Below the pieces are notes generated by a model that was not told where the DNA came from, made no database searches, and saw nothing but the letters and a program-made list of their open reading frames with translations. Below are positions 9,412 through 64,000 of a stretch of 64,000 nt of DNA, piece after piece. The DNA comes from an uncultured Pseudomonadales bacterium (GTDB lineage Bacteria > Patescibacteriota > Microgenomatia > UBA1400 > PJMF01): the NCBI GenBank assembly GCA_964645645.1, contig CAZYBC010000001.1, positions 6,064 to 70,063 of the forward strand, given 5' to 3'. Every line of letters begins with the position of its first letter. Positions within the stretch are counted from its first letter, which is position 1. The translations under genes were made by a program, and so were the position numbers.

Positions 9412-10635
9412 TTAAACCTTAAACTGCCCATTTTGATAAATAATTTTTTCACTGCCATCGGCCAAAATAGCGGTGACTGTACGATCAGTGGTTTGAACAA
9501 TGTCAGTGTGTTCGGCTGAATCATTAAAACCTAATTTGGCCCAGGTTCTTTTGCTTACTTGGCTTGCATCGCCACGATAACAGTCATGATATGACATCCC
9601 AATCGCTAAGTGCATATTGCCAAATTTACCACCCATATTTTCATCAAATAAGGTTTCAGCCATTGGATGAGTAATCCGGCTCATCCGGCCATCGGTCAAG
9701 CTAAACTCACCTAATTTATTAGCATTGGGCGTTTTTAACATCGCTTGTAAAAATTGATCGCCTTTTTTAGCCTGAGCCTTAACGACCACACCTTCTTCAA
9801 AAACTAAATCAATATCTTCAATCAAATTGCCATAACGATACAGTGGTTCATTAAAATGGATATGACCTTCTGTACCACGCCAATCTGGTGACGTAAAAAT
9901 TTCAAAACTAGGAATATTCCGTCCACCGCCGCCATTCCAAACACGATCAGCCCCAATTTTTAACCAGATATCAGTGCCTTCACCAACCACATGAAGTTTG
10001 TCGATTTTTAAATCATTTAAAGTTTGCCGAATTTTATGTTGTTCTTGACTAATTGTTTGCCATTGAGCAATTGGATCAGCCACATCTAAATAACAGGCCA
10101 AAATAATTTGTTGCCAATATTCCTCTAAGCTCAAACCCACTTCCTTGGCCTTAGCCAAAGTGGCCCACATGGCAATCGTCCAGGTAAATTTACCCTCATT
10201 TTCTTTTTTGGTCAGCCAATCACGATAGGCTTTTTTACTATTACGCGCTTGTAAAATACGATTGGGATCAACGTCTTTTAATTCAAAAGGATCAACCTCA
10301 GCAATAATAACAATTTGATGATCAATTAAATTGGCTTTAGCTTGAAGATATTTTTTAGGAAAAAAAGTTAATTGATCATTATCAGCAAAATCATAAAAAT
10401 CTTTATCAAACTGAGTTGGTAAAAGTTGCAAAATAGGATGAGCGCCGGCTCTTAAAACCTCCTTGTGTAATTCTTTAGCTAAAGGCTTAGCTACATCTGG
10501 GACCACAATATTAACCACTTCTTTTGGCTTTACCCCAGCTCCAGAATTAAGCGCATAATTAACCAACACTTTAGCATATTGATTTAAAATTTCAGCTGAA
10601 GGTTGGTAATTTGTAGAATTTTGCGTAATAGACAT
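9412..10635 (-). CDS. Aminopeptidase, M29 family (AmpS/PepS-like).
   Basis: 407 aa. The N-terminal region and overall length fit thermophilic-metalloprotease M29 family members. Confidence 0.7.
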   Translation of the reverse strand: MSITQNSTNYQPSAEILNQYAKVLVNYALNSGAGVKPKEVVNIVVPDVAKPLAKELHKEVLRAGAHPILQLLPTQFDKDFYDFADNDQLTFFPKKYLQAKANLIDHQIVIIAEVDPFELKDVDPNRILQARNSKKAYRDWLTKKENEGKFTWTIAMWATLAKAKEVGLSLEEYWQQIILACYLDVADPIAQWQTISQEQHKIRQTLNDLKIDKLHVVGEGTDIWLKIGADRVWNGGGGRNIPSFEIFTSPDWRGTEGHIHFNEPLYRYGNLIEDIDLVFEEGVVVKAQAKKGDQFLQAMLKTPNANKLGEFSLTDGRMSRITHPMAETLFDENMGGKFGNMHLAIGMSYHDCYRGDASQVSKRTWAKLGFNDSAEHTDIVQTTDRTVTAILADGSEKIIYQNGQFKV

Positions 10636-10697
10636 AAATATTTTCTAAAACCGACTTGGGCTAGCCAGCCGATTGATTTATAAATATAATCAACTTT

Positions 10698-11306
10698 ATG
10701 CAAGAACCAATTATTTATCAGCCTACCTCAGAATTACAACTTAGCCAACATATTTTTCGCACTCCCATTGACGGGCTTTATTATATAACGATTGACAAAA
10801 AAAATGACGAACGGGGTTTTTTTAGCCAAATTATTGAATTACAAGAATTAGAAGCAATTATTGGTCAACCTTTTACAGTAAAACAATTTAACTATTCTAA
10901 AAGCCAAACTAATGTGGTGCGTGGTTTGCACGCTGAAGGTTGGAATAAATTAGTGACAGTCACTCACGGAACCGCTTTTAGCGCTTTGGCTGATATTAGA
11001 CCTCAGTCTGCTACTTTTAAACAAGTTGTTTATTTTAAATTAGGTTTTGACCTTAATCCTGATCTTGGCTTTGCTCTTTATATTAGCCAAGGCATCGCCA
11101 ATTCAATTTGTGCCTTAGAAGGGCCTGTAGAATATCTTTATTTAGTGGATAAACTGTATAGCGAACGCAGCCAAAAAGATAATGCGGCCCTATCAATTTT
11201 TGATCCAGAATTAAATATTCAATGGCCCATTGCCAAAGAACAAATGATCATCTCACAACGAGATACTCAACCTAAAAAATTAAGCGAAATGTTAGCGGAA
11301 AAATAA
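10698..11306 (+). CDS. dTDP-4-dehydrorhamnose 3,5-epimerase-like cupin (RmlC family).
   Basis: DERGFF...VRGLHAEGW...KLV.VTHG...DIRP.S.TF are RmlC signature segments. The second catalytic His region is diverged (ANSICALEG). Confidence 0.6.
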   Translation: MQEPIIYQPTSELQLSQHIFRTPIDGLYYITIDKKNDERGFFSQIIELQELEAIIGQPFTVKQFNYSKSQTNVVRGLHAEGWNKLVTVTHGTAFSALADIRPQSATFKQVVYFKLGFDLNPDLGFALYISQGIANSICALEGPVEYLYLVDKLYSERSQKDNAALSIFDPELNIQWPIAKEQMIISQRDTQPKKLSEMLAEK

Positions 11307-11318
11307 CTTGATTGTTTT

Positions 11319-11885
11319 TTAGCTAAATTCTTCGTTGCTCTCCATGTCTTTTTCAATCAAATCTCTAAGATAAACAGAGCGAGGAATTTTTTTATTTTTA
11401 GCAATCCAATCTAAATAGTTTTGATGTCTAGGTGAAATGAAAAAGTTAAAACGAGTATCTTGTTGTTCAGCGGCATAATCAATAGCAGTGGAAAGCACTT
11501 CAATTAAATTAGCTTCTGAATATTCAATCAACTGTAATTTATCATTGACGATACCTTCTACAAAACTAGGACGAAAATCTTTTAAATAAAGAGCAATGAC
11601 TGGTTTATTAAGCTGTAAAGATCTTTCCATGATATAACCCATAGATAAACTATTCATGGAAACTTCAAGAACAATTAAATCAGCTTTTTTAATATATTCG
11701 ATAGTTTTTTTATAATGATCAACTCGACTTTCATGAGAACCATTATAAAACTTTTCTCGGTATTCAAGACTAGTTATTCCTCTTAAATGACTATGACCTA
11801 GTCTTTCAATCTCTTTATAAATGGCGTCGTAATATTTACCGAACTCTTTAATGCCTCGTCCGGATTGATCAAAATAAATTTTCAT
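11319..11885 (-). CDS. Nucleoside 2-deoxyribosyltransferase-like domain fused to a C-terminal ribbon-helix-helix (RHH) DNA-binding domain.
   Basis: ADLIVLEVS...GYIMERSLQLNKPVIAL matches the NDT/Rcl-like fold, with a Glu in the GY.ME motif. The C-terminal RFNFFISPRHQNYLDWIAKNKKIPRSVYLRDLIEKDM has a beta-alpha-alpha RHH pattern. The start was chosen at MKIYF (ATG 11885). The ORF track extends to 11918. Confidence 0.5.
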   Translation of the reverse strand: MKIYFDQSGRGIKEFGKYYDAIYKEIERLGHSHLRGITSLEYREKFYNGSHESRVDHYKKTIEYIKKADLIVLEVSMNSLSMGYIMERSLQLNKPVIALYLKDFRPSFVEGIVNDKLQLIEYSEANLIEVLSTAIDYAAEQQDTRFNFFISPRHQNYLDWIAKNKKIPRSVYLRDLIEKDMESNEEFS

Positions 11886-11939
11886 AATTAAAATTATATT
11901 ATATACCAACCGAGGCAAAGACTAAACCTTAAATTTATC

Positions 11940-11960
11940 AATTCTACAATTTGTAGAATT
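11940..11960. promoter_or_regulatory. Perfect 21-bp palindrome (candidate operator) in a divergent promoter region.
   Basis: AATTCTACAA-T-TTGTAGAATT. Located between the NDT-RHH fusion gene (minus strand) and the ribA-like gene (plus strand). Confidence 0.5.
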
Positions 11961-12046
11961 AATAATAATTTATTACTTTTGAAGCCTAGACTAAAAAATG
12001 TTATAATTTTTTACGAAAAAAATAACATTATTAAGATTATTTTATT

Positions 12047-12676
12047 ATGCGTACTAATTTTAAAAAAACCACTACTATCAATTTGGACACTCCTCATGGC
12101 AGATTTTTAGTTCATTTATATGAAGATCCTAGCTCTAAAGATAAAGATGATCCTTTTATTGTTAAACATCATCTAGCTTTAACTATGGGGGAAGTCAACA
12201 ATAAAGCAAATGTTTTAGTAAGAGTTCAATCTAAATGTTTATTAAATGAAACTTTTGGTGACTTAGAATGCGATTGTGGTCAACAATTGCATCATGCCAT
12301 GGAATTAATCGCTCAAAAAGGTGAAGGCATCATCGTCTACTTAATGCAGGATGGCAAAGGCATCGGCTTGGCTAATAAAATTAAAGCCATTAAAGTTTGT
12401 CAAGAAAAAGGGATGGATATGTATGATGCTTTTATTGATCTTGGCTTTAAACCTGATGAAAGAAGTTACGATGTCGTGGCTGATATTTTGGAAGACTTAG
12501 GGGTGCAATCTCCTATTCAATTAATGACCAATAGCCCAGATAAAATTCAACAATTAGCAGAATGTGGTATTCAAGCCAATCGCGTGGCTATTGAAATGCC
12601 AGTTACTGACTATAATCGTAAATCATTGACTTACAAAAAAAATAAAATGGGGCATTTACTCCACGAAATTATTTAG
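12047..12676 (+). CDS. ribA: GTP cyclohydrolase II (RibA) homolog, standalone.
   Basis: RVQSKCLLNETFGDLECDCGQQL (zinc-binding C..C.C) and LMQDGKGIGLANKIKA...LMTNSP are clearly alignable to RibA. The Arg of the conserved EGRNIGL motif is replaced by Lys. Confidence 0.7.
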   Translation: MRTNFKKTTTINLDTPHGRFLVHLYEDPSSKDKDDPFIVKHHLALTMGEVNNKANVLVRVQSKCLLNETFGDLECDCGQQLHHAMELIAQKGEGIIVYLMQDGKGIGLANKIKAIKVCQEKGMDMYDAFIDLGFKPDERSYDVVADILEDLGVQSPIQLMTNSPDKIQQLAECGIQANRVAIEMPVTDYNRKSLTYKKNKMGHLLHEII

Positions 12677-57866: not shown

Positions 57867-57969
57867 GCATTCATAGTTCAATAGGATAGAATAGGGTTTT
57901 GACTAAGGACATAATCTATTTATGATTTTAGTTAAGCCTCAGCTGGCAGTTCGAATCTGCCTGAATGCA
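57867..57969 (+). other. Non-canonical tRNA-like element, possibly a pseudo-tRNA or att remnant.
   Basis: Canonical T-arm GGCAG-TTCGAAT-CTGCC followed by TGAATGC + A. A perfect 7-nt complement, GCATTCA, lies 95 nt upstream. The D-arm and anticodon arm cannot be folded canonically. The total is 103 nt. Confidence 0.4.
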
Positions 57970-58037
57970 CAATACTTAAGCAACATACAATTTACTCATA
58001 TGTTCTAGTAAAAAACCGCTTAAAATCTTACATTAAA

Positions 58038-59630
58038 ATGACAAAAATATTAAAAACACCAACTTCAAACACTAGCAAAGAACAAGAACGTGCCGAATTG
58101 CACCGAACTATCTGGCAAATTGCCAATGATCTACGTGGGAGTGTTGATGGTTGGGATTTTAAATCATATGTATTAGGAATGCTTTTTTACCGCTTTATTA
58201 GTGAAAATCTAACTAACTATATTAATGATGACGAACGCCGTTCTGGAAGCTTAAACTTTGACTATGCAAAACTTACAGACAAAGAAGCAGAATTTGGTCG
58301 GACCGATACTGTAAAAGAAAAAGGCTTCTATATTTTACCCAGCGAATTGTTTGTTAACGTCTGCAAGAAAGCCAAAAACGACAAAAATCTTAATGAGACA
58401 CTAGCAAAAATTTTTGCGAACATTGAAAATTCAGCTAAAGGTTCAACAAGCGAAGATGATCTCAAAGGTTTATTTGCTGACTTAGACGTTAACTCAAGTA
58501 AACTTGGCAATACTGTTGAACACCGCAATCAAAAACTGGTTAAGATTATTGAGGCAGTCAGCAATCTTCGCCTTGGCAATTACTCAGACCATACCATTGA
58601 TGCTTTTGGAGACGCTTACGAATTTTTAATGACCATGTATGCCTCTAATGCTGGTAAATCTGGAGGTGAATTTTATACACCTCAAGAAGTAAGTGAATTA
58701 CTGGCAGAAATTACTACCGTTGGTAAAAAAGAAGTCAATAAAGTTTATGACCCGGCTTGTGGCTCTGGTTCTCTGCTTCTTAAATTTGCCAAAGTGCTTG
58801 GTAAAGAAAATGTCCGCCAAGGATTTTTTGGCCAAGAAATTAATCTCACTACTTACAACTTATGTCGCATCAACATGTTTTTGCACGACATTAATTACAA
58901 TAATTTTGATATTGCCCTTGGCGATACTTTGCTTGAACCAAAACATTGGGATGATGAACCATTTGATGCAATTGTATCCAATCCTCCCTATTCAATTAAA
59001 TGGGAAGGAGATGCTAATCCGCTTCTTATCAATGATCCCCGCTTCTCACCGGCTGGAGTACTCGCCCCAAAAGGCAAGGCTGATTTAGCTTTTACCATGC
59101 ACATGCTTTCCTGGTTATCTACCGGTGGTACAGCCGCAATTGTTGAATTCCCAGGAGTTCTTTACCGCGGAGGAGCTGAACAAAAAATTAGAAAATATCT
59201 TCTTGAAAATAACTATGTCGATACAGTCATTCAATTGCCACCAGATTTGTTTTTTGGGACTACAATTGCAACTTGTGTCATTGTCCTTAAAAAAAGCAAA
59301 AAAGATAATAAAACTTTGTTTATTGACGCTTCAAAAGAATTTATCAGAAATGGCAATAAAAATAAATTAAGCGAAACAAACCGTCAAAAAATTTTAGAAG
59401 CCTTTATGGCTCGTCAAGATAGCAAATATTTTGCCAAATTAGTGGATAACAAAGCAATTGCAGAGAATGAGTACAACATCTCGGTTTCTAGCTATGTGGA
59501 ACAGGAAGATACACGAGAAGTAATTGATATTACCAAGTTGAATGCTGAGATAAAGCAGATTGTGGCTAGACAACAAGAGCTAAGGTTAGCGATTGATGGA
59601 ATAGTAAAGGATATTGAAGGAAAAGATTAA
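58038..59630 (+). CDS. hsdM: Type I restriction-modification N6-adenine DNA methyltransferase subunit M.
   Basis: HsdM N-terminal domain, the SAM motif DPACGSGSLL, and the catalytic NPPY (IVSNPPYSIKW). Confidence 0.9.
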   Translation: MTKILKTPTSNTSKEQERAELHRTIWQIANDLRGSVDGWDFKSYVLGMLFYRFISENLTNYINDDERRSGSLNFDYAKLTDKEAEFGRTDTVKEKGFYILPSELFVNVCKKAKNDKNLNETLAKIFANIENSAKGSTSEDDLKGLFADLDVNSSKLGNTVEHRNQKLVKIIEAVSNLRLGNYSDHTIDAFGDAYEFLMTMYASNAGKSGGEFYTPQEVSELLAEITTVGKKEVNKVYDPACGSGSLLLKFAKVLGKENVRQGFFGQEINLTTYNLCRINMFLHDINYNNFDIALGDTLLEPKHWDDEPFDAIVSNPPYSIKWEGDANPLLINDPRFSPAGVLAPKGKADLAFTMHMLSWLSTGGTAAIVEFPGVLYRGGAEQKIRKYLLENNYVDTVIQLPPDLFFGTTIATCVIVLKKSKKDNKTLFIDASKEFIRNGNKNKLSETNRQKILEAFMARQDSKYFAKLVDNKAIAENEYNISVSSYVEQEDTREVIDITKLNAEIKQIVARQQELRLAIDGIVKDIEGKD

Positions 59631-59635
59631 AAACT

Positions 59636-61921
59636 ATGGAAATCAAAAGTATAAAAGAAATAAAAAACATTGGCATATTTGCAAATTTTGCAAATGGAGC
59701 AACTTTTCGCTTTGATGAAAAGATTACTTTTATTTATGGATTAAATACTTTTGGAAAGACTACACTTACGGATATTTTTCAATCTTTAAAAGACAATAAC
59801 TCAAATATAATAAATTCAAGAAGAACAATCCCCACACAACAAGGAAATCAAAAAGTAGTAATCTCAATATTTGATCAAAATCCTCCTGAAAAAGATTTAA
59901 TATTTCAAAACAATAATTGGGGACAAAATAGCTTATCAGAACATCTTGAAGTTTTTGGAACAGAATTTATTCATAGGAATCTATTTACAGGGTTATCTAT
60001 TGAAAGAGAAAATAAGGAGAATTTTACAGATTTTATTTTAGGAGAAGAAGGAGCAAAAATCGCTGAAAATATAGAAAATGATAAAAAAATTCTCGGGGAA
60101 AAGACAAGAAATAAAATAAATAAATTACCAAGGTTCATTAAAGAAAAATCAGAAAAAGAAATTACAGATTTTTTAAAGTTGGATATTTCAAGTTTAGATA
60201 AAAACAAAATTGAAGCAGATTTATTTAAATTAAAAACCGAAAAACAGGAAGAAGAAAGAAGATTGAAAGAACCTCAAAAAATTCTTAATTTAGAAAATCC
60301 AATTAAAGTAGTAATTCCTGAATTTACAATTTTAGAGAATTTAGAAAAAATAAATGATTATCTACAAAAAAATTATTCAAATATTAAAGAAAAGTTTTTA
60401 AAACGTTTAAACGAACATATAAATGAAAATTCTCTAAATCAAGATATCGCTGAAAACTGGATAAAACAAGGTTTTCATAATACAAAAGATAAAAACGGTA
60501 ATTGCTTGTTTTGTGGTCAGCCTTTAGTAAATGCAAAATATATTATTAATCTTTACGATAAATATTTTGATGTAAATTATTCAAACTATATCACGGAAAT
60601 AGAAACAGGTCTTAAAACAGAATTTAAAAATATTGAAAGTGCTTATTTTAACTTTCAAATTAAATTTACAAATCAATTTACTAGTGCTTCAAAATTTAAA
60701 GAGCTTATTTTAGATCAGTCATTTCAGGAGATATTAAATAATTTTGAAAAAAAACTTAAATGTATTAGTGATGATTCATTGGAAAATCAAAGGAAAATGC
60801 TAATACAAGCTATTAAAAAGAAAGCTGAACAGAAAAACAAAAAACCTTATATTTCAATAGATAAAATTAGTTTTGATGAATTTAAAAATAATCTGCAATC
60901 CTATATTAAATACTTGGCAGAAATAAATGATTTAATTGAAGAAACAGAGGAAAATATAAATAGTTTTAAAGAACAATACAAAGACACTTCAAAAATAACA
61001 GGCAAAATAAATGAGTTAAAGAAAAATATTGAAATTTTAGAATATCAAAAAGCAAGAATAGATCAAAACAAAGATTGTGAAGTTTATTTACAGGAAATTA
61101 AAGATATTAAAATTTTAAGCAAAAAAATTGATGAAAATAGGAAAAATCTCGAAGATAATCAAGATGAGTATTTAAAAAAATATTTTGTAAAAATAAACGA
61201 ATTATTTAAAAAATTTGGAAGTCATAATTTCATACTTGATAAAGTACAAGAAAACTTAGGGAATAAACCAGTTTATACTCTAAAAGTTAAATTTCATAAT
61301 CAAGAAATTTCAAATGAACAAATGAAAACTGTTTTTAGTGAGTCAGATAGAAGAGCTTTGGCTTTATCAATATTTTGGGCAAAAATTGAACTAAAAAAAG
61401 AAGTAGAAAAGCAAAAAACAATTGTTGTTTTAGATGATCCGATTACTAGTTTTGATGATAATAGAACGATGAATTTTATTTATTATATTAAAGATAATCT
61501 GCAAGAACTAAAGCAAATAATTATTTTTACTCATTACAATAAATTTCTATCAGATTACAATAAATTCACACAAGAAAAACACAAAACATATAAAATAGTA
61601 AGTGGAGGGAAACTAGATAATTTTGATTTAGATACTTTTTTAAAGAGCGAGTATGTTCAAACACTTGAAAAAATAGAAAACTTTATTAATGGAAAATCTA
61701 AAATTGATCCTGCGATTTTTAGATCATTTATTGATGTTTTATATAAACCTATATTTTCTGGAATAACACCAAATAACATTATTAATGATTTATATACAAA
61801 ATGTTGTACATTTAATCACAATGGTTTTAATTATGAACAAGAAGAAGAGAATGTAAGAAATTTTGCAAAAGAAATGAAAGAAAAACTTTATTCTTTTGAA
61901 TATAGAAATAATTCCGATTAA
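59636..61921 (+). CDS. AAA_13-family ATPase (PrrC/RloC-like) inserted between hsdM and hsdS. Candidate anticodon-nuclease or abortive-infection ATPase.
   Basis: N-terminal Walker A GLNTFGKTT. A central CxxC (GNCLFCGQPL) sits within a predicted coiled-coil. Walker B TIVVLDDPITSFD and H-loop IIIFTHYNKF are present. 761 aa. It sits in the classic hsdM-x-hsdS position. Confidence 0.6.
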   Translation: MEIKSIKEIKNIGIFANFANGATFRFDEKITFIYGLNTFGKTTLTDIFQSLKDNNSNIINSRRTIPTQQGNQKVVISIFDQNPPEKDLIFQNNNWGQNSLSEHLEVFGTEFIHRNLFTGLSIERENKENFTDFILGEEGAKIAENIENDKKILGEKTRNKINKLPRFIKEKSEKEITDFLKLDISSLDKNKIEADLFKLKTEKQEEERRLKEPQKILNLENPIKVVIPEFTILENLEKINDYLQKNYSNIKEKFLKRLNEHINENSLNQDIAENWIKQGFHNTKDKNGNCLFCGQPLVNAKYIINLYDKYFDVNYSNYITEIETGLKTEFKNIESAYFNFQIKFTNQFTSASKFKELILDQSFQEILNNFEKKLKCISDDSLENQRKMLIQAIKKKAEQKNKKPYISIDKISFDEFKNNLQSYIKYLAEINDLIEETEENINSFKEQYKDTSKITGKINELKKNIEILEYQKARIDQNKDCEVYLQEIKDIKILSKKIDENRKNLEDNQDEYLKKYFVKINELFKKFGSHNFILDKVQENLGNKPVYTLKVKFHNQEISNEQMKTVFSESDRRALALSIFWAKIELKKEVEKQKTIVVLDDPITSFDDNRTMNFIYYIKDNLQELKQIIIFTHYNKFLSDYNKFTQEKHKTYKIVSGGKLDNFDLDTFLKSEYVQTLEKIENFINGKSKIDPAIFRSFIDVLYKPIFSGITPNNIINDLYTKCCTFNHNGFNYEQEEENVRNFAKEMKEKLYSFEYRNNSD

Positions 61922-61924
61922 ACT

Positions 61925-63154
61925 ATGCCAACTCACCAATCCAAAATCGACCGCCTCATTAGCGACCTTTGTCCCAACGGTGTTGAGTATAAAACCCTGG
62001 GTGAGATAGGAACTTTCGTTCGAGGTAGCGGTTTACAAAAAACTAACTTTACTGAAACTGGAGTAGGATGCATTCACTATGGTCAAATCTACACCTACTA
62101 CAAATTATTTACTAAAAAGACAAAATCTTTTGTATCTTCTGAGCTTGCAGATAAATTAAAAAAGGTTCAAAAAGGAAACCTTGTAATTGCTTGTACTAGT
62201 GAAAATGTTGAAGATGTATGTAAATCTATTGTTTGGCTTGGGGATAAAGATATAGTTACTGGTGGTCACTCAACTATTTTTAAACACAACGAGAACCCGT
62301 TATACGTTGCTTATTTTTTTCAATCTAAAAATTTTTTTGATCAGAAAACAAAATACGTTAAGGGTACCAAAGTAATAGAAATGTCAGCTAAAGACTTGGC
62401 TAAAATAAAAATCCCCCTTCCTCCCCTTCTAATTCAAGCCGAAATCGTCAAAATTCTTGATAATTTTACAGAGCTGGAAGCAGAGCTGGAAGCAGAGCTG
62501 GAAGCAAGGAAGAAGCAATATGAGTACTATCGAGCAAGCTTGTTTGGAGTTAAAGATGCTATTTATAAAAACTTAGGGGATGTGTGTTATATAACATCTG
62601 GGGGGACTCCATCTAAATTAAAAAAGGAATATTGGGATAGTGGGGATATTCCTTGGATAAAATCTGAATCATGTAAAAATCAACCTGTGTATTCAGCGAC
62701 AAACTTTATAGCCGCAGATGGTTTGAAGAACTCTGGTGCCAAACTATTAGATTCTGATACCACGTTAATGGCTCTTGTTGGTGCAACCATTTTTAAAACC
62801 GCATTTTTAGAATTTAAAGCCAGCACAAATCAAAATATTGCGAGTATTAAGTCAAAAGATAAATTAATATTGAAGGATAAGTTCATCTTTTATTATTTAA
62901 CTCAACTTTATTTCGATTTAAAAAATAAAATGAAAAATTATGGAATGCTCAATTTAACAACACTAAGATCATTTAAAATTCCCATACCACCAATTAAAGA
63001 ACAACAACGCATCGTTTCCATTCTCGATAAATTTGACGCCCTCGTTAACGATATCTCTATTGGCCTACCAGCCGAACTTAGTGCAAGACGACAACAATAC
63101 GAGTATTATCGAAATAAGCTGCTGACATTTAAACCATTAAAAAATTATGCCTAA
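61925..63154 (+). CDS. hsdS: Type I restriction-modification specificity subunit S, with two target-recognition domains.
   Basis: Two TRDs are separated by the conserved spacers LPPLLIQAEIVKILD...KKQYEYYR and LPAELSARRQQYEYYRNKLL. The central region contains the tandem ELEAELEAELEA. Confidence 0.88.
   Translation: MPTHQSKIDRLISDLCPNGVEYKTLGEIGTFVRGSGLQKTNFTETGVGCIHYGQIYTYYKLFTKKTKSFVSSELADKLKKVQKGNLVIACTSENVEDVCKSIVWLGDKDIVTGGHSTIFKHNENPLYVAYFFQSKNFFDQKTKYVKGTKVIEMSAKDLAKIKIPLPPLLIQAEIVKILDNFTELEAELEAELEARKKQYEYYRASLFGVKDAIYKNLGDVCYITSGGTPSKLKKEYWDSGDIPWIKSESCKNQPVYSATNFIAADGLKNSGAKLLDSDTTLMALVGATIFKTAFLEFKASTNQNIASIKSKDKLILKDKFIFYYLTQLYFDLKNKMKNYGMLNLTTLRSFKIPIPPIKEQQRIVSILDKFDALVNDISIGLPAELSARRQQYEYYRNKLLTFKPLKNYA
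62471..62506 (+). repeat. Perfect 12-bp tandem repeat x3 (GAGCTGGAAGCA) inside hsdS.
   Basis: Read directly from the sequence. It encodes (ELEA)3 in the central conserved spacer of HsdS. Confidence 0.95.
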
Positions 63155-63953
63155 AATAACCGTACAACAAACAGAAATTTCAATCCTTACTAAGCTCGGA
63201 AATGATTATATTTCTTTGACTGATATTGCAAAATATAAGAGTGATGATCCAACTGCAACAATTTCAAACTGGATGAGAAATCGTAATACTATCGAATATT
63301 TGGGCATCTGGGAGACCTTATATAATTCTGAGTTTAAACCCCTCGAATTCGAGGGGTTTAGAAAACAAGCAGGACTCAATGCTTTTACTATATCACCTCA
63401 AAAATGGATAGAAAAAACGAATGCAAAAGGAATCATCTCCAAATCAGGTCGCTATGGAGGCACCTATGCTCATAAAGATATTGCCTTAAAATTTGCTGCC
63501 TGGATTTCTATTGAATTTGAACTGTACTTTATAAAAGAATTTCAAAGACTTAAAGAGGCAGAGCAAAAACAGCTCGGTTGGTCGGCCAAACGTGAATTGG
63601 CTAAAATCAATTATCATATCCACACCGATGCCATCAAGAAAAATCTTATCCCACCAAAGCTTACTAAAGCTCAAATTAACTTTGTTTATGCCAACGAAGC
63701 CGACGTGCTTAACGTTGCTTTATTTGGCATAACTGCCAAACAATGGCGAGATATTAATGCTAATTTAAAAGGTAACATTCGCGACTACGCCAATATTCAT
63801 CAACTGATTTGTTTGTCTAACCTAGAAAATCTTAATGCCGTTTTTATTAACGATAAATTACCTCAAAGTGAACGTTTGGAAAAACTAAACAATATTGCCA
63901 TCGGCCAAATGAAAGTGTTACAAGAAATAGAAGGAAGAAAATTACTCAAATAA
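63147..63953 (+). CDS. KilA-N/Bro-N-like domain protein.
   Basis: N-terminal YISLTDIAKY...ISNWMRNRNTIEYLGIWE resembles the KilA-N domain. It overlaps the hsdS stop. Confidence 0.45.
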   Translation: MPKITVQQTEISILTKLGNDYISLTDIAKYKSDDPTATISNWMRNRNTIEYLGIWETLYNSEFKPLEFEGFRKQAGLNAFTISPQKWIEKTNAKGIISKSGRYGGTYAHKDIALKFAAWISIEFELYFIKEFQRLKEAEQKQLGWSAKRELAKINYHIHTDAIKKNLIPPKLTKAQINFVYANEADVLNVALFGITAKQWRDINANLKGNIRDYANIHQLICLSNLENLNAVFINDKLPQSERLEKLNNIAIGQMKVLQEIEGRKLLK

Positions 63954-64000
63954 CTATGTCAAATCAAATAACTTATTACAACTTGGTTGCACAAGGATCT

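What the first reader, a model, noticed from the sequence alone, without database searches (positions are those of the whole stretch)
59636..61921. RloC/PrrC-like AAA_13 ATPase with a CxxC zinc-hook candidate embedded between hsdM and hsdS
- The 761-aa ORF in the canonical restriction-linked position (hsdM-x-hsdS) has ABC/Rad50-like ATPase motifs: Walker A GLNTFGKTT, Walker B VVLDDPITSFD and an H-loop FTHY.
- A long central coiled-coil-like insertion contains CLFCG.
- This is the architecture of RloC-type anticodon nucleases. RloC is a PrrC relative carrying a Rad50-like zinc hook.
- Such proteins act as a suicide back-up defence when phage inhibits the restriction-modification system.
- The C-terminal ~140 aa lack an obvious PrrC Arg-Glu-His triad, so the effector could be different or novel.
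Basis: partly seen in the sequence, partly recalled or inferred. Interest (0 to 1): 0.65.

Follow-up and report, generated by a model that had tools for sequence, protein, structure and literature searches.

The report
RloC-type tRNA nuclease inside restriction operon
This gene encodes a member of the known RloC family (a Rad50-like ATPase with a zinc hook, fused to a tRNA-cutting domain) sitting inside a type IC restriction-modification operon; it is probably a back-up "suicide" defence against phage, and is ordinary except for an unusually short, altered nuclease domain.

Summary

- **Family.** It scores far above Pfam's AAA_13 cut-off and matches PADLOC candidate PDC-S06 at E 1.5e-165.
- **Conservation.** K41, C290/C293, D600-D601, H633, R696 and H728 are invariant across its homologues.
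- **Zinc hook.** The hook region reads like the experimentally studied G. kaustophilus RloC. Its best solved-structure matches are the Rad50 zinc hooks, with the cysteines in register.
- **Context.** The flanking restriction system is type IC, the class that hosts PrrC. The operon reads hsdM-rloC-hsdS-kilA-N-hsdR, and the nearest relatives have the same layout.
- **Correction.** The C-terminal domain is not foreign. It is a shortened version of RloC's nuclease domain. The triad reads Arg-x3-Asp-x27-His instead of Arg-x3-Glu-x36-52-His, and the equivalents of two further PrrC-essential residues are replaced.
- **Activity.** The matching E324D change abolishes toxicity in E. coli PrrC, yet this domain is under purifying selection (dN/dS 0.14-0.24). 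Nuclease activity is therefore likely but unproven.

Verdict: a new member of a known kind, with modest interest.

The parts
57899..57926 (+). Sigma-70-like promoter candidate (TTGACT-16-TATGAT, 10/12) about 110 nt upstream of hsdM. It is the best + strand candidate for the operon promoter. It lies inside the 27-nt insert of a tRNA-like sequence.
   Evidence: This is a consensus match only. The region as a whole has no more promoter-like sites than shuffled sequence.
58038..59630 (+). hsdM, the methyltransferase subunit of a type IC (EcoR124 family) restriction-modification system.
   Evidence: TIGR00497 E 6e-230. Pfam N6_Mtase and HsdM_N. The best solved relative is the EcoR124II M protein at E 1.6e-192 over the full length, against EcoKI M at 8e-15.
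59636..61921 (+). rloC-like gene, 761 aa: ABC ATPase, zinc-hook insert and C-terminal nuclease-type domain.
59738..59764 (+). Walker A / P-loop, GLNTFGKTT (residues 35-43). K41 is the counterpart of GkaRloC K44 and EcoPrrC K46.
   Evidence: Positions. N37, K41 and T43 are invariant in 104 sequences and T42 is at least 90% conserved. The reference residues come from PMC3458546 and PMC3025547.
60005..61213 (+). All-helical insert (residues 124-526) that splits the ABC head. It has long helices at 124-163 and 414-526 and is Rad50/SMC-like.
   Evidence: AlphaFold model, mean pLDDT 85. The best Foldseek PDB hits are Rad50 (7zr1, E 1.7e-8), cohesin/SMC heads and Lamassu LmuB. The heptad signal is significant only at residues 326-356 and 412-450.
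60503..60514 (+). CxxC zinc-hook motif: C290-L-F-C293, within the conserved W-I-K-x-G...C-x-F-C-G-Q-x-L.
   Evidence: C290 and C293 are invariant. The hook profile's top PDB hits are Rad50 hooks 1l8d and 6zff, E 0.013 and 0.019, with the cysteines in register. The GkaRloC hook reads CAFCGN, and C291G activates its nuclease.
61334..61366 (+). ABC-signature-like segment FSESDRRALAL (residues 567-577).
   Evidence: S568, S570, D571, R573 and L577 are invariant. Position. The functional assignment is inferred from its place before Walker B.
61424..61456 (+). Walker B and D-loop, VVLDDPITSFD (residues 597-607). It carries an Asp-Asp pair, as in PrrC, rather than Asp-Glu.
   Evidence: D600, D601, P602, T604, S605, F606 and D607 are invariant. 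EcoPrrC Asp215 and Asp216 are essential. GkaRloC D572N was used as the ATPase mutant.
61526..61537 (+). H-loop / switch histidine, FTHY (H633).
   Evidence: H633 and Y634 are invariant. EcoPrrC His251 is the counterpart.
61586..61918 (+). C-terminal domain (residues 651-761): a beta-hairpin plus four helices. It is a shortened version of the RloC anticodon-nuclease (HEPN-class) domain.
   Evidence: Domain model pLDDT 82. Alignments A3 and A4. dN/dS 0.14-0.24. Foldseek found no significant match in the PDB or among viral structures.
61721..61735 (+). R696-S-F-I-D700. This corresponds to the Arg-x3-Glu part of the PrrC/RloC triad, with Asp in place of Glu.
   Evidence: R696 and F698 are invariant. 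The acidic position is Glu in at least 90% of the family but Asp in all eight full-length closest relatives. EcoPrrC E324D is non-toxic.
61799..61819 (+). K722-C-C-T-F-N-H728. H728 aligns with the family's invariant His of LNPDSH. The family's Arg at -8 and Asn at -4 are Y720 and C724 here, and K722 sits at -6.
   Evidence: EcoPrrC R349, N352 and H356 are essential and are reported as conserved in RloC.
61925..63154 (+). hsdS, the specificity subunit (409 aa, two target-recognition halves).
   Evidence: Pfam Methylase_S E 1.3e-43 in two stretches. PADLOC Specificity_I E 1.4e-147.
63147..63953 (+). KilA-N domain gene (268 aa). It overlaps the end of hsdS by 8 nt and is a second passenger gene in the operon.
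   Evidence: Pfam KilA-N E 3e-23. PADLOC PDC-S22 E 3.7e-132. It is absent from the otherwise collinear relatives L081 and L082. Homologues lie close to rloC in L017 and L012.
63956..64000 (+). Start of hsdR, cut off by the end of the window: MSNQITYYNLVAQGS...
   Evidence: It resembles the N-termini of the HsdR proteins of L081 (MSVNNKYNLVAES...) and L082 (MSNNNKYNLVAES...). L081's HsdR carries the EcoR124_C domain.

Best explanation
The ORF encodes a member of the RloC family. It has a Rad50-like ABC ATPase whose two head halves are separated by a roughly 400-residue helical insert carrying a CxxC zinc hook, followed by a small helical nuclease domain of the PrrC/RloC (HEPN-class) type. It is co-transcribed, and probably translationally coupled, with a type IC restriction-modification system, in the order hsdM-rloC-hsdS-kilA-N-hsdR.

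**Most likely mechanism**
1. The protein is made at a low level.
2. It dimerises through its ATP-binding head and its zinc hook.
3. In that state, and possibly also through contact with the Hsd complex, the nuclease is kept silent.
4. A phage either disables restriction or generates DNA ends.
5. The DNA-dependent ATPase and hook switch then releases the nuclease.
6. The nuclease cuts tRNA anticodon loops and shuts down translation before phage progeny are made.

**Shown here:** family membership by full-length homology and motifs, the type IC context and its recurrence in the nearest relatives, and purifying selection on every domain.

**Inferred from published RloC and PrrC work:** tRNA as the substrate, the trigger, and silencing by the hook or by the R-M enzyme.

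**Uncertain:** whether the altered catalytic constellation of this clade (Arg696, Asp700, Lys722, His728) still cleaves tRNA in the canonical way.
For: **Family assignment**
- Pfam AAA_13 at 124.5 bits against a cut-off of 36.
- PADLOC PDC-S06 at E 1.5e-165.
- 173 homologues, several of which JGI names 'wobble nucleotide-excising tRNase'.

**Published RloC criteria** (ABC motifs, coiled-coil/zinc-hook insert, C-terminal Arg-x3-Glu-x36-52-His with Ser before His, 658-897 aa)
- Most aligned homologues meet these, with DLRPFLE...LNPDSH and a Glu-to-His spacing mostly of 50-54.
- Landmark residues fall almost where they do in GkaRloC: K41 vs K44, C290 vs C291, R696 vs R692, D700 vs E696, H728 vs H737.

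**Zinc hook**
- The motif WIKQG...CLFCGQ compares with GkaRloC WVREG...CAFCGN.
- The top PDB hits of the hook profile are Rad50 zinc hooks, with the cysteines aligned.

**Fold**
- Rad50, SMC and LmuB heads are the best matches.

**Genomic context**
- HsdM is type IC, the class that carries prrC.
- The three nearest relatives all sit inside type I operons. Two have the same gene order and HsdM proteins 79-83% identical to this one.
- About 13 of 30 closer genome homologues have an HsdM-like gene within 10 kb, against 4 of 49 distant ones.

**Selection**
- dN/dS in the C-domain is 0.14-0.24, against 0.20 for the whole gene.
- The gene's GC3 is 13%, against about 29% in its neighbours. This fits the rare-codon, low-expression trait reported for rloC.
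Against: **Altered catalytic residues**
- The Glu is Asp here, and E324D is non-toxic in EcoPrrC.
- The residues that align with the family's conserved Arg and Asn upstream of the His (which I take to be the equivalents of PrrC R349 and N352) are Tyr and Cys here. R349K, N352A and N352D are non-toxic in EcoPrrC.
- The acid-to-His spacing is 27, outside the published 36-52.

**Weak recognition of the C-domain**
- Pfam AAA_13 stops aligning at residue 652, whereas it runs to about residue 760 in long-form relatives.
- The C-domain model has no significant structural match, HEPN or otherwise, in the two libraries that could be searched.

**Limits on the comparisons**
- No full-length GkaRloC or PrrC sequence was available. 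The link to them rests on published motif descriptions and a partial supplement sequence.
- Heptad periodicity is significant on only one side of the hook.
- No experiment has shown anti-phage activity for PDC-S06 or for any cis-linked RloC.
Confidence: 0.65

Rival explanations
1. It is an RloC homologue whose nuclease centre has been remodelled or inactivated. The protein still senses DNA ends or the state of the R-M enzyme through its ATPase and hook. Its C-domain either cleaves a different RNA target or uses different chemistry, or it acts without catalysis, for example by binding tRNA or modulating HsdR.
For: - In this clade D700 replaces the Glu, Y720 the Arg and C724 the Asn.
- The corresponding EcoPrrC changes E324D, R349K and N352A/D abolish toxicity.
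- A helix of about 25 residues is deleted between the two halves of the triad.
- A new, strictly conserved KCCTFNHN motif has appeared.
- The Pfam profile no longer aligns the domain.
- Purifying selection shows the domain still does something.
Against: - R696, H728, E738 and R741 remain conserved, so a catalytic pocket is plausible.
- Short-form relatives with Glu and LNPxxH (P0016, P0075) bridge to the canonical form.
- K722 lies 5 residues before H728, which fits a [R/K]x4-6H HEPN-like spacing.
- The PrrC mutational data come from a distant homologue assayed in yeast.
Confidence: 0.2
2. It is a Rad50/SMC/LmuB-like DNA sensor with no effector of its own. It works with a separate partner encoded nearby (HsdR, the KilA-N protein or another gene), as Lamassu LmuB does with LmuA.
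For: - Weaker PADLOC hits to LmuB models (E 2e-11).
- Foldseek hits to Lamassu LmuB structures.
- A KilA-N gene (PDC-S22) sits in the same operon and recurs close to rloC in L017 and L012.
Against: - The PDC-S06 model scores about 150 orders of magnitude better than the LmuB models.
- The KilA-N gene is absent from the collinear relatives L081 and L082 and from L080, so it is not an obligatory partner.
- The protein carries its own conserved C-terminal domain. That domain is found almost only in this architecture: 212 representatives, nearly all at about residues 640-785 of roughly 785-aa proteins.
Confidence: 0.08
3. It is a housekeeping DNA-repair ATPase (RecF/RecN/SbcC-like) that merely happens to lie in the operon.
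For: The family profile gives weak hits to RecF and Rad50 ATPase heads (E about 3e-4).
Against: - No NCBIfam repair-family model reaches its cut-off.
- The distribution across phyla is patchy.
- Base composition is strongly atypical in almost every host.
- The gene is tightly embedded in R-M operons.
- It has an additional C-terminal domain that Rad50 and SbcC lack.
Confidence: 0.02

Closest known systems
RloC of Geobacillus kaustophilus (GkaRloC, YP_146738; Davidov & Kaufmann 2008; Klaiman et al. 2012)
   Same: - The overall plan and size are alike (761 vs 804 aa): a split ABC head, a helical insert with CxFCG[QN] at residue about 290, an Asp-rich Walker B, a switch His and a C-terminal helical nuclease domain.
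- Landmark residues lie within a few positions of each other, apart from the His: K41/K44, C290/C291, R696/R692 (H728 vs H737).
- The sequence before and after the hook is recognisably the same.
   Different: - The acidic triad residue is Asp, not Glu.
- The acid-to-His spacing is 27, against 40 in GkaRloC.
- Asn rather than Ser precedes the His.
- The residues aligned with the family's upstream Arg and Asn are Tyr and Cys.
- GkaRloC lies in a transposon beside an hsdR relic, whereas this gene is inside an intact type IC operon.
- No activity data exist for this protein.
PrrC anticodon nuclease of E. coli (EcoPrrC) in the EcoprrI type IC locus
   Same: - The gene is embedded in a type IC hsd operon.
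- It combines an ABC NTPase with a C-terminal nuclease domain.
- Walker B is Asp-Asp.
- The acid-to-His spacing is short: 27 here and 31 in PrrC.
   Different: - PrrC is about 400 aa and has no helical/zinc-hook insert.
- PrrC has the PrrC box and a lysine-anticodon recognition peptide, neither of which was seen here.
- My C-domain profile did not reach any PrrC-sized protein.
- By my own recollection, prrC lies between hsdS and hsdR.
Rad50 (Mre11-Rad50) zinc hook and ATPase head
   Same: - It has a split ABC head with a protruding helical insert.
- The motif CxxCG[RQ]xL aligns with P. furiosus Rad50 CPVCGREL.
   Different: - Rad50 has no C-terminal nuclease domain and works with Mre11.
- Its coiled coil is much longer.
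- The sequence similarity here is marginal (E about 0.01).
PADLOC phage-defence candidate PDC-S06
   Same: The best model, PDLC04895, covers residues 3-708 at E 1.5e-165.
   Different: PDC-S06 is an untested computational candidate label rather than a characterised system. Its model does not cover the last roughly 50 residues, which hold H728.
Lamassu LmuB (SMC-like sensor)
   Same: It is an SMC/Rad50-like ATPase that senses DNA ends in defence, and it gives structural and weak profile matches.
   Different: LmuB needs a separate effector, LmuA. There is no CxxC hook homology, and the scores are far weaker than for PDC-S06.

Membership tests
RloC (Davidov & Kaufmann 2008 definition) | ABC-ATPase motifs shared with PrrC: Walker A Lys, signature, Walker B/D-loop and switch His. 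| tested here: met
   GLNTFGKTT (K41), FSESDRRALAL, VVLDDPITSFD (D600, D601) and FTHY (H633). The key residues are all invariant in 104 sequences. Pfam AAA_13 scores 124.5 bits.
RloC (Davidov & Kaufmann 2008 definition) | A largely alpha-helical insert that splits the ATPase head, with a central loop carrying CxxC (zinc hook). | tested here: met
   The helical insert spans residues 124-526, and C290/C293 lie in a loop between helices. Both cysteines are invariant. The motif matches the GkaRloC hook and the Rad50 hook structures.
RloC (Davidov & Kaufmann 2008 definition) | The helices flanking the hook form an antiparallel coiled coil. | tested here: inconclusive
   The crude heptad score is significant only at residues 326-356 and 412-450. 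The family profile hits coiled-coil proteins only over about residues 320-526. Model coordinates could not be inspected, and pLDDT is 63-70 around the hook.
RloC (Davidov & Kaufmann 2008 definition) | C-terminal Arg-x3-Glu-x36-52-His, with Ser often before the His (the catalytic triad). | tested here: inconclusive
   The Arg (R696) and His (H728) are present and align with the family's invariant residues. The Glu is Asp (D700), the spacing is 27 and Asn precedes the His. Long-form homologues at 35-53% identity meet the motif fully.
RloC (Davidov & Kaufmann 2008 definition) | Size of 658-897 aa. | tested here: met
   761 aa.
RloC (Davidov & Kaufmann 2008 definition) | Wobble-nucleotide-excising tRNase activity regulated by the zinc hook and a DNA-dependent ATPase. 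| not testable with these tools
   This needs biochemistry. Only GkaRloC and A. baylyi RloC have been assayed.
PrrC | A protein of about 340-416 aa, an ABC NTPase without a coiled-coil insert. | tested here: not met
   761 aa with a 400-residue insert.
PrrC | Invariable linkage to a type IC R-M locus. | tested here: met
   HsdM matches EcoR124II M at E 1.6e-192. The gene lies between hsdM and hsdS with gaps of 5 and 3 nt.
HEPN superfamily (as assigned to PrrC/RloC by Anantharaman et al. 2013) | A four-helix core with an Rx4-6H motif. | tested here: inconclusive
Pfam AAA_13 (PF13166) | Score above the gathering threshold. | tested here: met
   124.5 bits against 36, covering residues 13-652 and profile positions 3-588 of 713.
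Lamassu LmuB | Best match to LmuB profiles, with a partner effector LmuA next door. | tested here: not met
   The best LmuB hit is E 2e-11, against 1.5e-165 for PDC-S06. No LmuA-like gene lies in the operon.

The most novel reading that the evidence does not exclude
The window's clade comprises nine 90%-identity clusters (the window's own, which holds only this protein, plus eight at 66-83% identity). All three relatives whose context could be read sit in type I operons. This clade may represent a re-engineered RloC effector. The nuclease domain has lost a helix and swapped three of the residues that are essential in PrrC (Glu to Asp, Arg to Tyr with a nearby Lys, Asn to Cys). It has also gained a strictly conserved Cys-Cys-x-x-x-His motif.

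This could give a new cleavage specificity or a metal- or redox-gated active site. Alternatively it could be a catalytically silent module that reports DNA ends or anti-restriction to the type IC enzyme instead of cutting tRNA.
Probability: 0.15. Interest if true: 0.55.

Novelty: new member of a known kind. Interest (0 to 1): 0.3.

Why it matters
RloC and PrrC are the classic 'guardian' nucleases that back up restriction enzymes. However, RloC has been studied biochemically in only two species, it has no solved structure, and it has never been shown to protect against phage in a natural cis-linked setting.

This locus is a compact, intact type IC operon with rloC translationally wedged between hsdM and hsdS. 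Its closest relatives appear to come from small-genome, candidate-phyla-type bacteria. It could therefore serve as a clean test case for whether a cis-linked RloC is silenced by its R-M partner, as PrrC is, in addition to its internal zinc-hook switch.

The Asp-for-Glu, shortened nuclease domain is a natural experiment on which triad residues are truly required.

None of this changes the picture of how such systems work. The practical value is correct annotation: this is RloC-type, not a generic 'AAA family ATPase'.

Tried and rejected
**Searches that found nothing useful**
- The window's own contig could not be fetched beyond the window end. P0001 is 100% identical, but no gene position is on record. 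hsdR is therefore inferred from 15 residues plus relatives.
- Sequence searches of the PDB found no RloC or PrrC structure, with either the single protein or the family profile.
- No NCBIfam model reached its cut-off. PHROGs gave only a weak SbcC-like hit.

**C-terminal domain**
- Fold search of the domain on its own gave nothing significant and no HEPN match, against either the PDB or viral structures.
- A C-domain profile search of 1.84 billion representatives was meant to reach PrrC-sized proteins. The hits of about 395 aa turned out to be N-terminally truncated RloC fragments.
- The first full-length MAFFT alignment put F731 under the family's His, suggesting the His was lost. Realigning the C-terminal part alone shows that H728 is the equivalent, followed by a 2-residue insert.

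**Readings I considered and dropped**
- Recent horizontal insertion as the cause of the low G+C. I rejected this as the sole explanation because hsdM and rloC are about equally diverged from L081 (83% and 80%). In addition, rloC is AT-richer than its flanks in nearly every host.

**Side checks**
- A narrow Rfam scan failed to reproduce the tRNA-like hit seen in the whole-window scan. ARAGORN with introns allowed did find it.
- The plasmid search returned only distant 'AAA family ATPase' genes.
Full report
**1. The observation**

The ORF lies at exactly 59636..61921 on the + strand and encodes 761 aa. All quoted motifs are present:

| Motif | Sequence | Residues |
|---|---|---|
| Walker A | GLNTFGKTT | 35-43 |
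| Hook | CLFCG | 290-294 |
| Walker B/D-loop | VVLDDPITSFD | 597-607 |
| H-loop | FTHY | 631-634 |

- hsdM (58038..59630) ends 5 nt upstream and hsdS (61925..63154) starts 3 nt downstream.
- Both neighbours are unambiguous: TIGR00497 at E 6e-230 for hsdM and Methylase_S at E 1e-43 for hsdS.
- The gene is real. 173 homologues were found, many full-length at 35-83% identity.
- In a 104-sequence alignment K41, C290, C293, S568/S570/D571/R573, D600/D601, H633, R696 and E738 are invariant.

**2. What family it belongs to**

- PADLOC's candidate family PDC-S06 matches at E 1.5e-165. LmuB models score only 2e-11.
- An AlphaFold model (mean pLDDT 85) shows an ABC head split into residues 1-123 and 527-650 by an all-helical insert at 124-526. 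The CxxC lies in a loop between helices 269-282 and 297-310.
- The best solved-structure matches are Rad50 (7zr1, E 1.7e-8), cohesin/condensin/SMC heads and Lamassu LmuB.

Davidov & Kaufmann (PMC2610378) define RloC by four features: PrrC-like ABC motifs, a coiled-coil/zinc-hook insert with CxxC, a C-terminal Arg-x3-Glu-x36-52-His motif with Ser often before the His, and a size of 658-897 aa. In G. kaustophilus RloC the key residues are K44, C291, D572, R692, E696 and H737.

- The homologue family found here fits this description. Its consensus runs ...DLRPFLExLY...(about 50 aa)...FRxxLNPDSH...EDVRNFA.
- Even 26-33% identical genome homologues from Pseudomonas, Herbaspirillum and others keep CxxC at about residues 280-290, together with LR.F.E...LNP..H.
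- The supplement of that paper gives the GkaRloC hook region as LQEWVREGLGLHKGLECAFCGNKI...LDRHF. The window protein reads AENWIKQGFHNTKDKNGNCLFCGQPL...LYDKYF.
- A profile of the hook region, searched against all PDB sequences, returns the two P. furiosus Rad50 zinc-hook structures as its top hits (1l8d and 6zff, E 0.013 and 0.019). CxxCG[QR]xL aligns on CPVCGREL.
- Walker B is Asp-Asp, as in PrrC, where Asp215 and Asp216 are essential (PMC3025547).

I conclude that the protein is an RloC-family member.

**3.

The first full-length alignment misplaced the histidine. When the last 121 residues are aligned on their own, R696, F698, H728 and E738 are invariant, and H728 sits under the His of LNPDSH, followed by a 2-residue insert. 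So two of the three triad residues are retained unchanged.

The window protein and its eight full-length closest relatives (66-83% identity) nevertheless form a distinct short-form clade. Their motifs are FR[ST]FID..Y and KCCTFNHN. They differ from the family in four ways:

- The Glu is Asp (D700).
- A helix of about 25 residues between the two motif halves is missing, which gives a spacing of 27. The family's spacing is usually 50-54 by my rough regex count, the published RloC range is 36-52, and PrrC has 31.
- The family's Arg at -8 is Y720 here, with K722 at -6.
- The family's Asn at -4 is C724 here.

Other observations on this domain:

- Short forms with Glu and LNPxxH (P0016, P0075) bridge the two types.
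- In EcoPrrC the changes E324D, R349K and N352A/D all abolish toxicity (PMC3025547 Table 1). Canonical catalysis in this clade is therefore not assured.
- Against decay, dN/dS in the C-domain is 0.14 and 0.24 in two comparisons, against 0.20 for the whole gene.
- Pfam's AAA_13 profile aligns through the C-domain of long-form relatives (to profile position about 690 of 713) but stops at residue 652 in the window protein.
- The isolated domain models as a beta-hairpin plus four helices (pLDDT 82). It has no significant structural neighbour in the PDB or among viral models. The published HEPN assignment (PMC3710099) could be neither confirmed nor refuted here.
- A profile of the domain finds only 212 representatives among 1.84 billion proteins. 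Nearly all lie at about residues 640-785 of proteins of about 785 aa. The shorter hits are truncated fragments, not PrrC-like proteins.

**4. Genomic context**

- HsdM is of the EcoR124 (type IC) family: E 1.6e-192 to EcoR124II M, against 8e-15 to EcoKI M. Type IC is the class in which prrC is embedded.
- After hsdS comes a KilA-N gene (63147..63953; PADLOC PDC-S22, E 3.7e-132). It overlaps hsdS by 8 nt.
- Two nt after its stop an ORF begins MSNQITYYNLVAQGS. This resembles the HsdR N-termini of two relatives.
- The operon is therefore hsdM-rloC-hsdS-kilA-N-hsdR.

The three nearest relatives whose contigs could be read are all inside type I operons:

| Locus | Gene order | HsdM identity to window |
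|---|---|---|
| L081 | hsdM-rloC-hsdS-hsdR | 83% |
| L082 | hsdM-rloC-hsdS-hsdR (hsdR cut off by the contig end; identified from its N-terminus) | 79% |
| L080 | hsdM-GmrSD-hsdS'-orf-rloC-hsdR | 26% |

- Among 79 genome loci, an HsdM-like gene lies within 10 kb of about 13 of the 30 closer homologues, but of only 4 of the 49 distant ones. This fits the published statement that RloC is only occasionally R-M-linked (8 of 72).
- The gene has 23% G+C (GC3 13%), against 34-37% for its operon partners.
- The same contrast appears in L080-L082 and in most other hosts, for example 40% against 58% in a Pseudomonas.
- hsdM and rloC are equally diverged from L081. The low G+C is therefore a family trait rather than a sign of recent insertion. 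It is consistent with the rare-codon, low-expression feature noted for rloC.

**5. Mechanism**

The best-supported model is the published RloC and PrrC logic applied to this locus.

- A dimeric, Rad50-like ATPase holds its nuclease domain silent through zinc-hook joints. Here it may also do so through the type IC complex with which it is co-expressed.
- Inhibition of restriction by a phage protein, or the appearance of DNA ends, drives an ATP-dependent change that frees the nuclease.
- The nuclease cleaves tRNA anticodon loops and stops translation.
- Only the architecture, context and selective constraint are shown here. Substrate, trigger and silencing are inferred from GkaRloC, A. baylyi RloC and EcoPrrC.

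The main rival, which I rate at about 0.2, is that the remodelled centre (Arg696, Asp700, Lys722, Cys723-Cys724, His728) has a different specificity or is non-catalytic. The readings as an LmuB-like sensor with a separate effector, or as a housekeeping repair ATPase, are poorly supported.

**6. Novelty and verdict**

RloC is a described family, is included in defence-system catalogues, and is known to occur as a 'restriction-linked ORF'. PADLOC already has a model that matches this protein at E 1.5e-165. This is therefore a new member of a known kind.

The only unusual feature is the shortened nuclease domain with Arg-x3-Asp-x27-His. It is conserved in a small clade, and the closest relatives suggest candidate-phyla-type bacteria, some using a UGA-recoded genetic code.

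Interest is about 0.3: a useful annotation and a good experimental model for cis-linked RloC, but not surprising to a specialist.

Noticed in passing
window 57867..57970 (+): A tRNA-like gene lies about 70 nt upstream of hsdM. The whole-window Rfam scan scores it at 44.7 bits over 103 nt. ARAGORN finds it only when introns are allowed, as 'tRNA-Leu(tag)' with a 27-nt insert in the anticodon loop and a short variable loop, which is unlike a real tRNA-Leu. The insert contains the best sigma-70-like promoter match on the + strand (TTGACT-16-TATGAT, 57899-57926), and it points at the operon. It may be a disrupted tRNA or an integration-site relic.
   Followed up: partly
window 63147..63953 (+); L017 8055-8822; L012 18461-19228: A KilA-N domain gene (PADLOC candidate PDC-S22, E 3.7e-132) is inserted between hsdS and hsdR and overlaps hsdS by 8 nt. 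The otherwise collinear relatives L081 and L082 lack it. A 76% identical copy sits between hsdM and rloC in Gelidibacter japonicus, where RloC itself is only 35% identical, and a 58% identical copy lies near rloC in a gammaproteobacterial MAG. It looks like an independently mobile passenger of type I operons.
   Followed up: partly
L006, L009, L012, L022, L034, L053, L080-L082 and the window: rloC-family genes are much more AT-rich than their surroundings in almost every host examined. Examples are 23% vs 35% here, 40% vs 58% in a Pseudomonas and 37% vs 55% in Aeromonas media. The two Bacteroidota loci L016 and L017 show little or no contrast.
   Followed up: partly
P0008 / L082, P0015, P0017: Several close homologues carry Trp where every other sequence has Gly, including in the Walker A motif (NTFWKTT). 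The L082 gene also 'does not translate to the query' under table 11. These database proteins probably come from UGA-recoded bacteria (code 25, Gracilibacteria/Absconditabacteria) and were translated with the wrong table.
   Followed up: no
L025 (Planctomycetota MAG), match 10001-12352: When the frame is read on from the start of the tblastn match, one RloC-like homologue continues about 290 residues past the usual C-terminus (1077 aa read, cysteine-rich tail). This may be an extra fused domain.
   Followed up: no
L080 1679-3463: In the closest relative's locus a GmrSD-type (modification-dependent) restriction gene is also embedded in the type I operon, between hsdM and a half-size hsdS. That operon therefore carries two passenger defence genes.
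   Followed up: no
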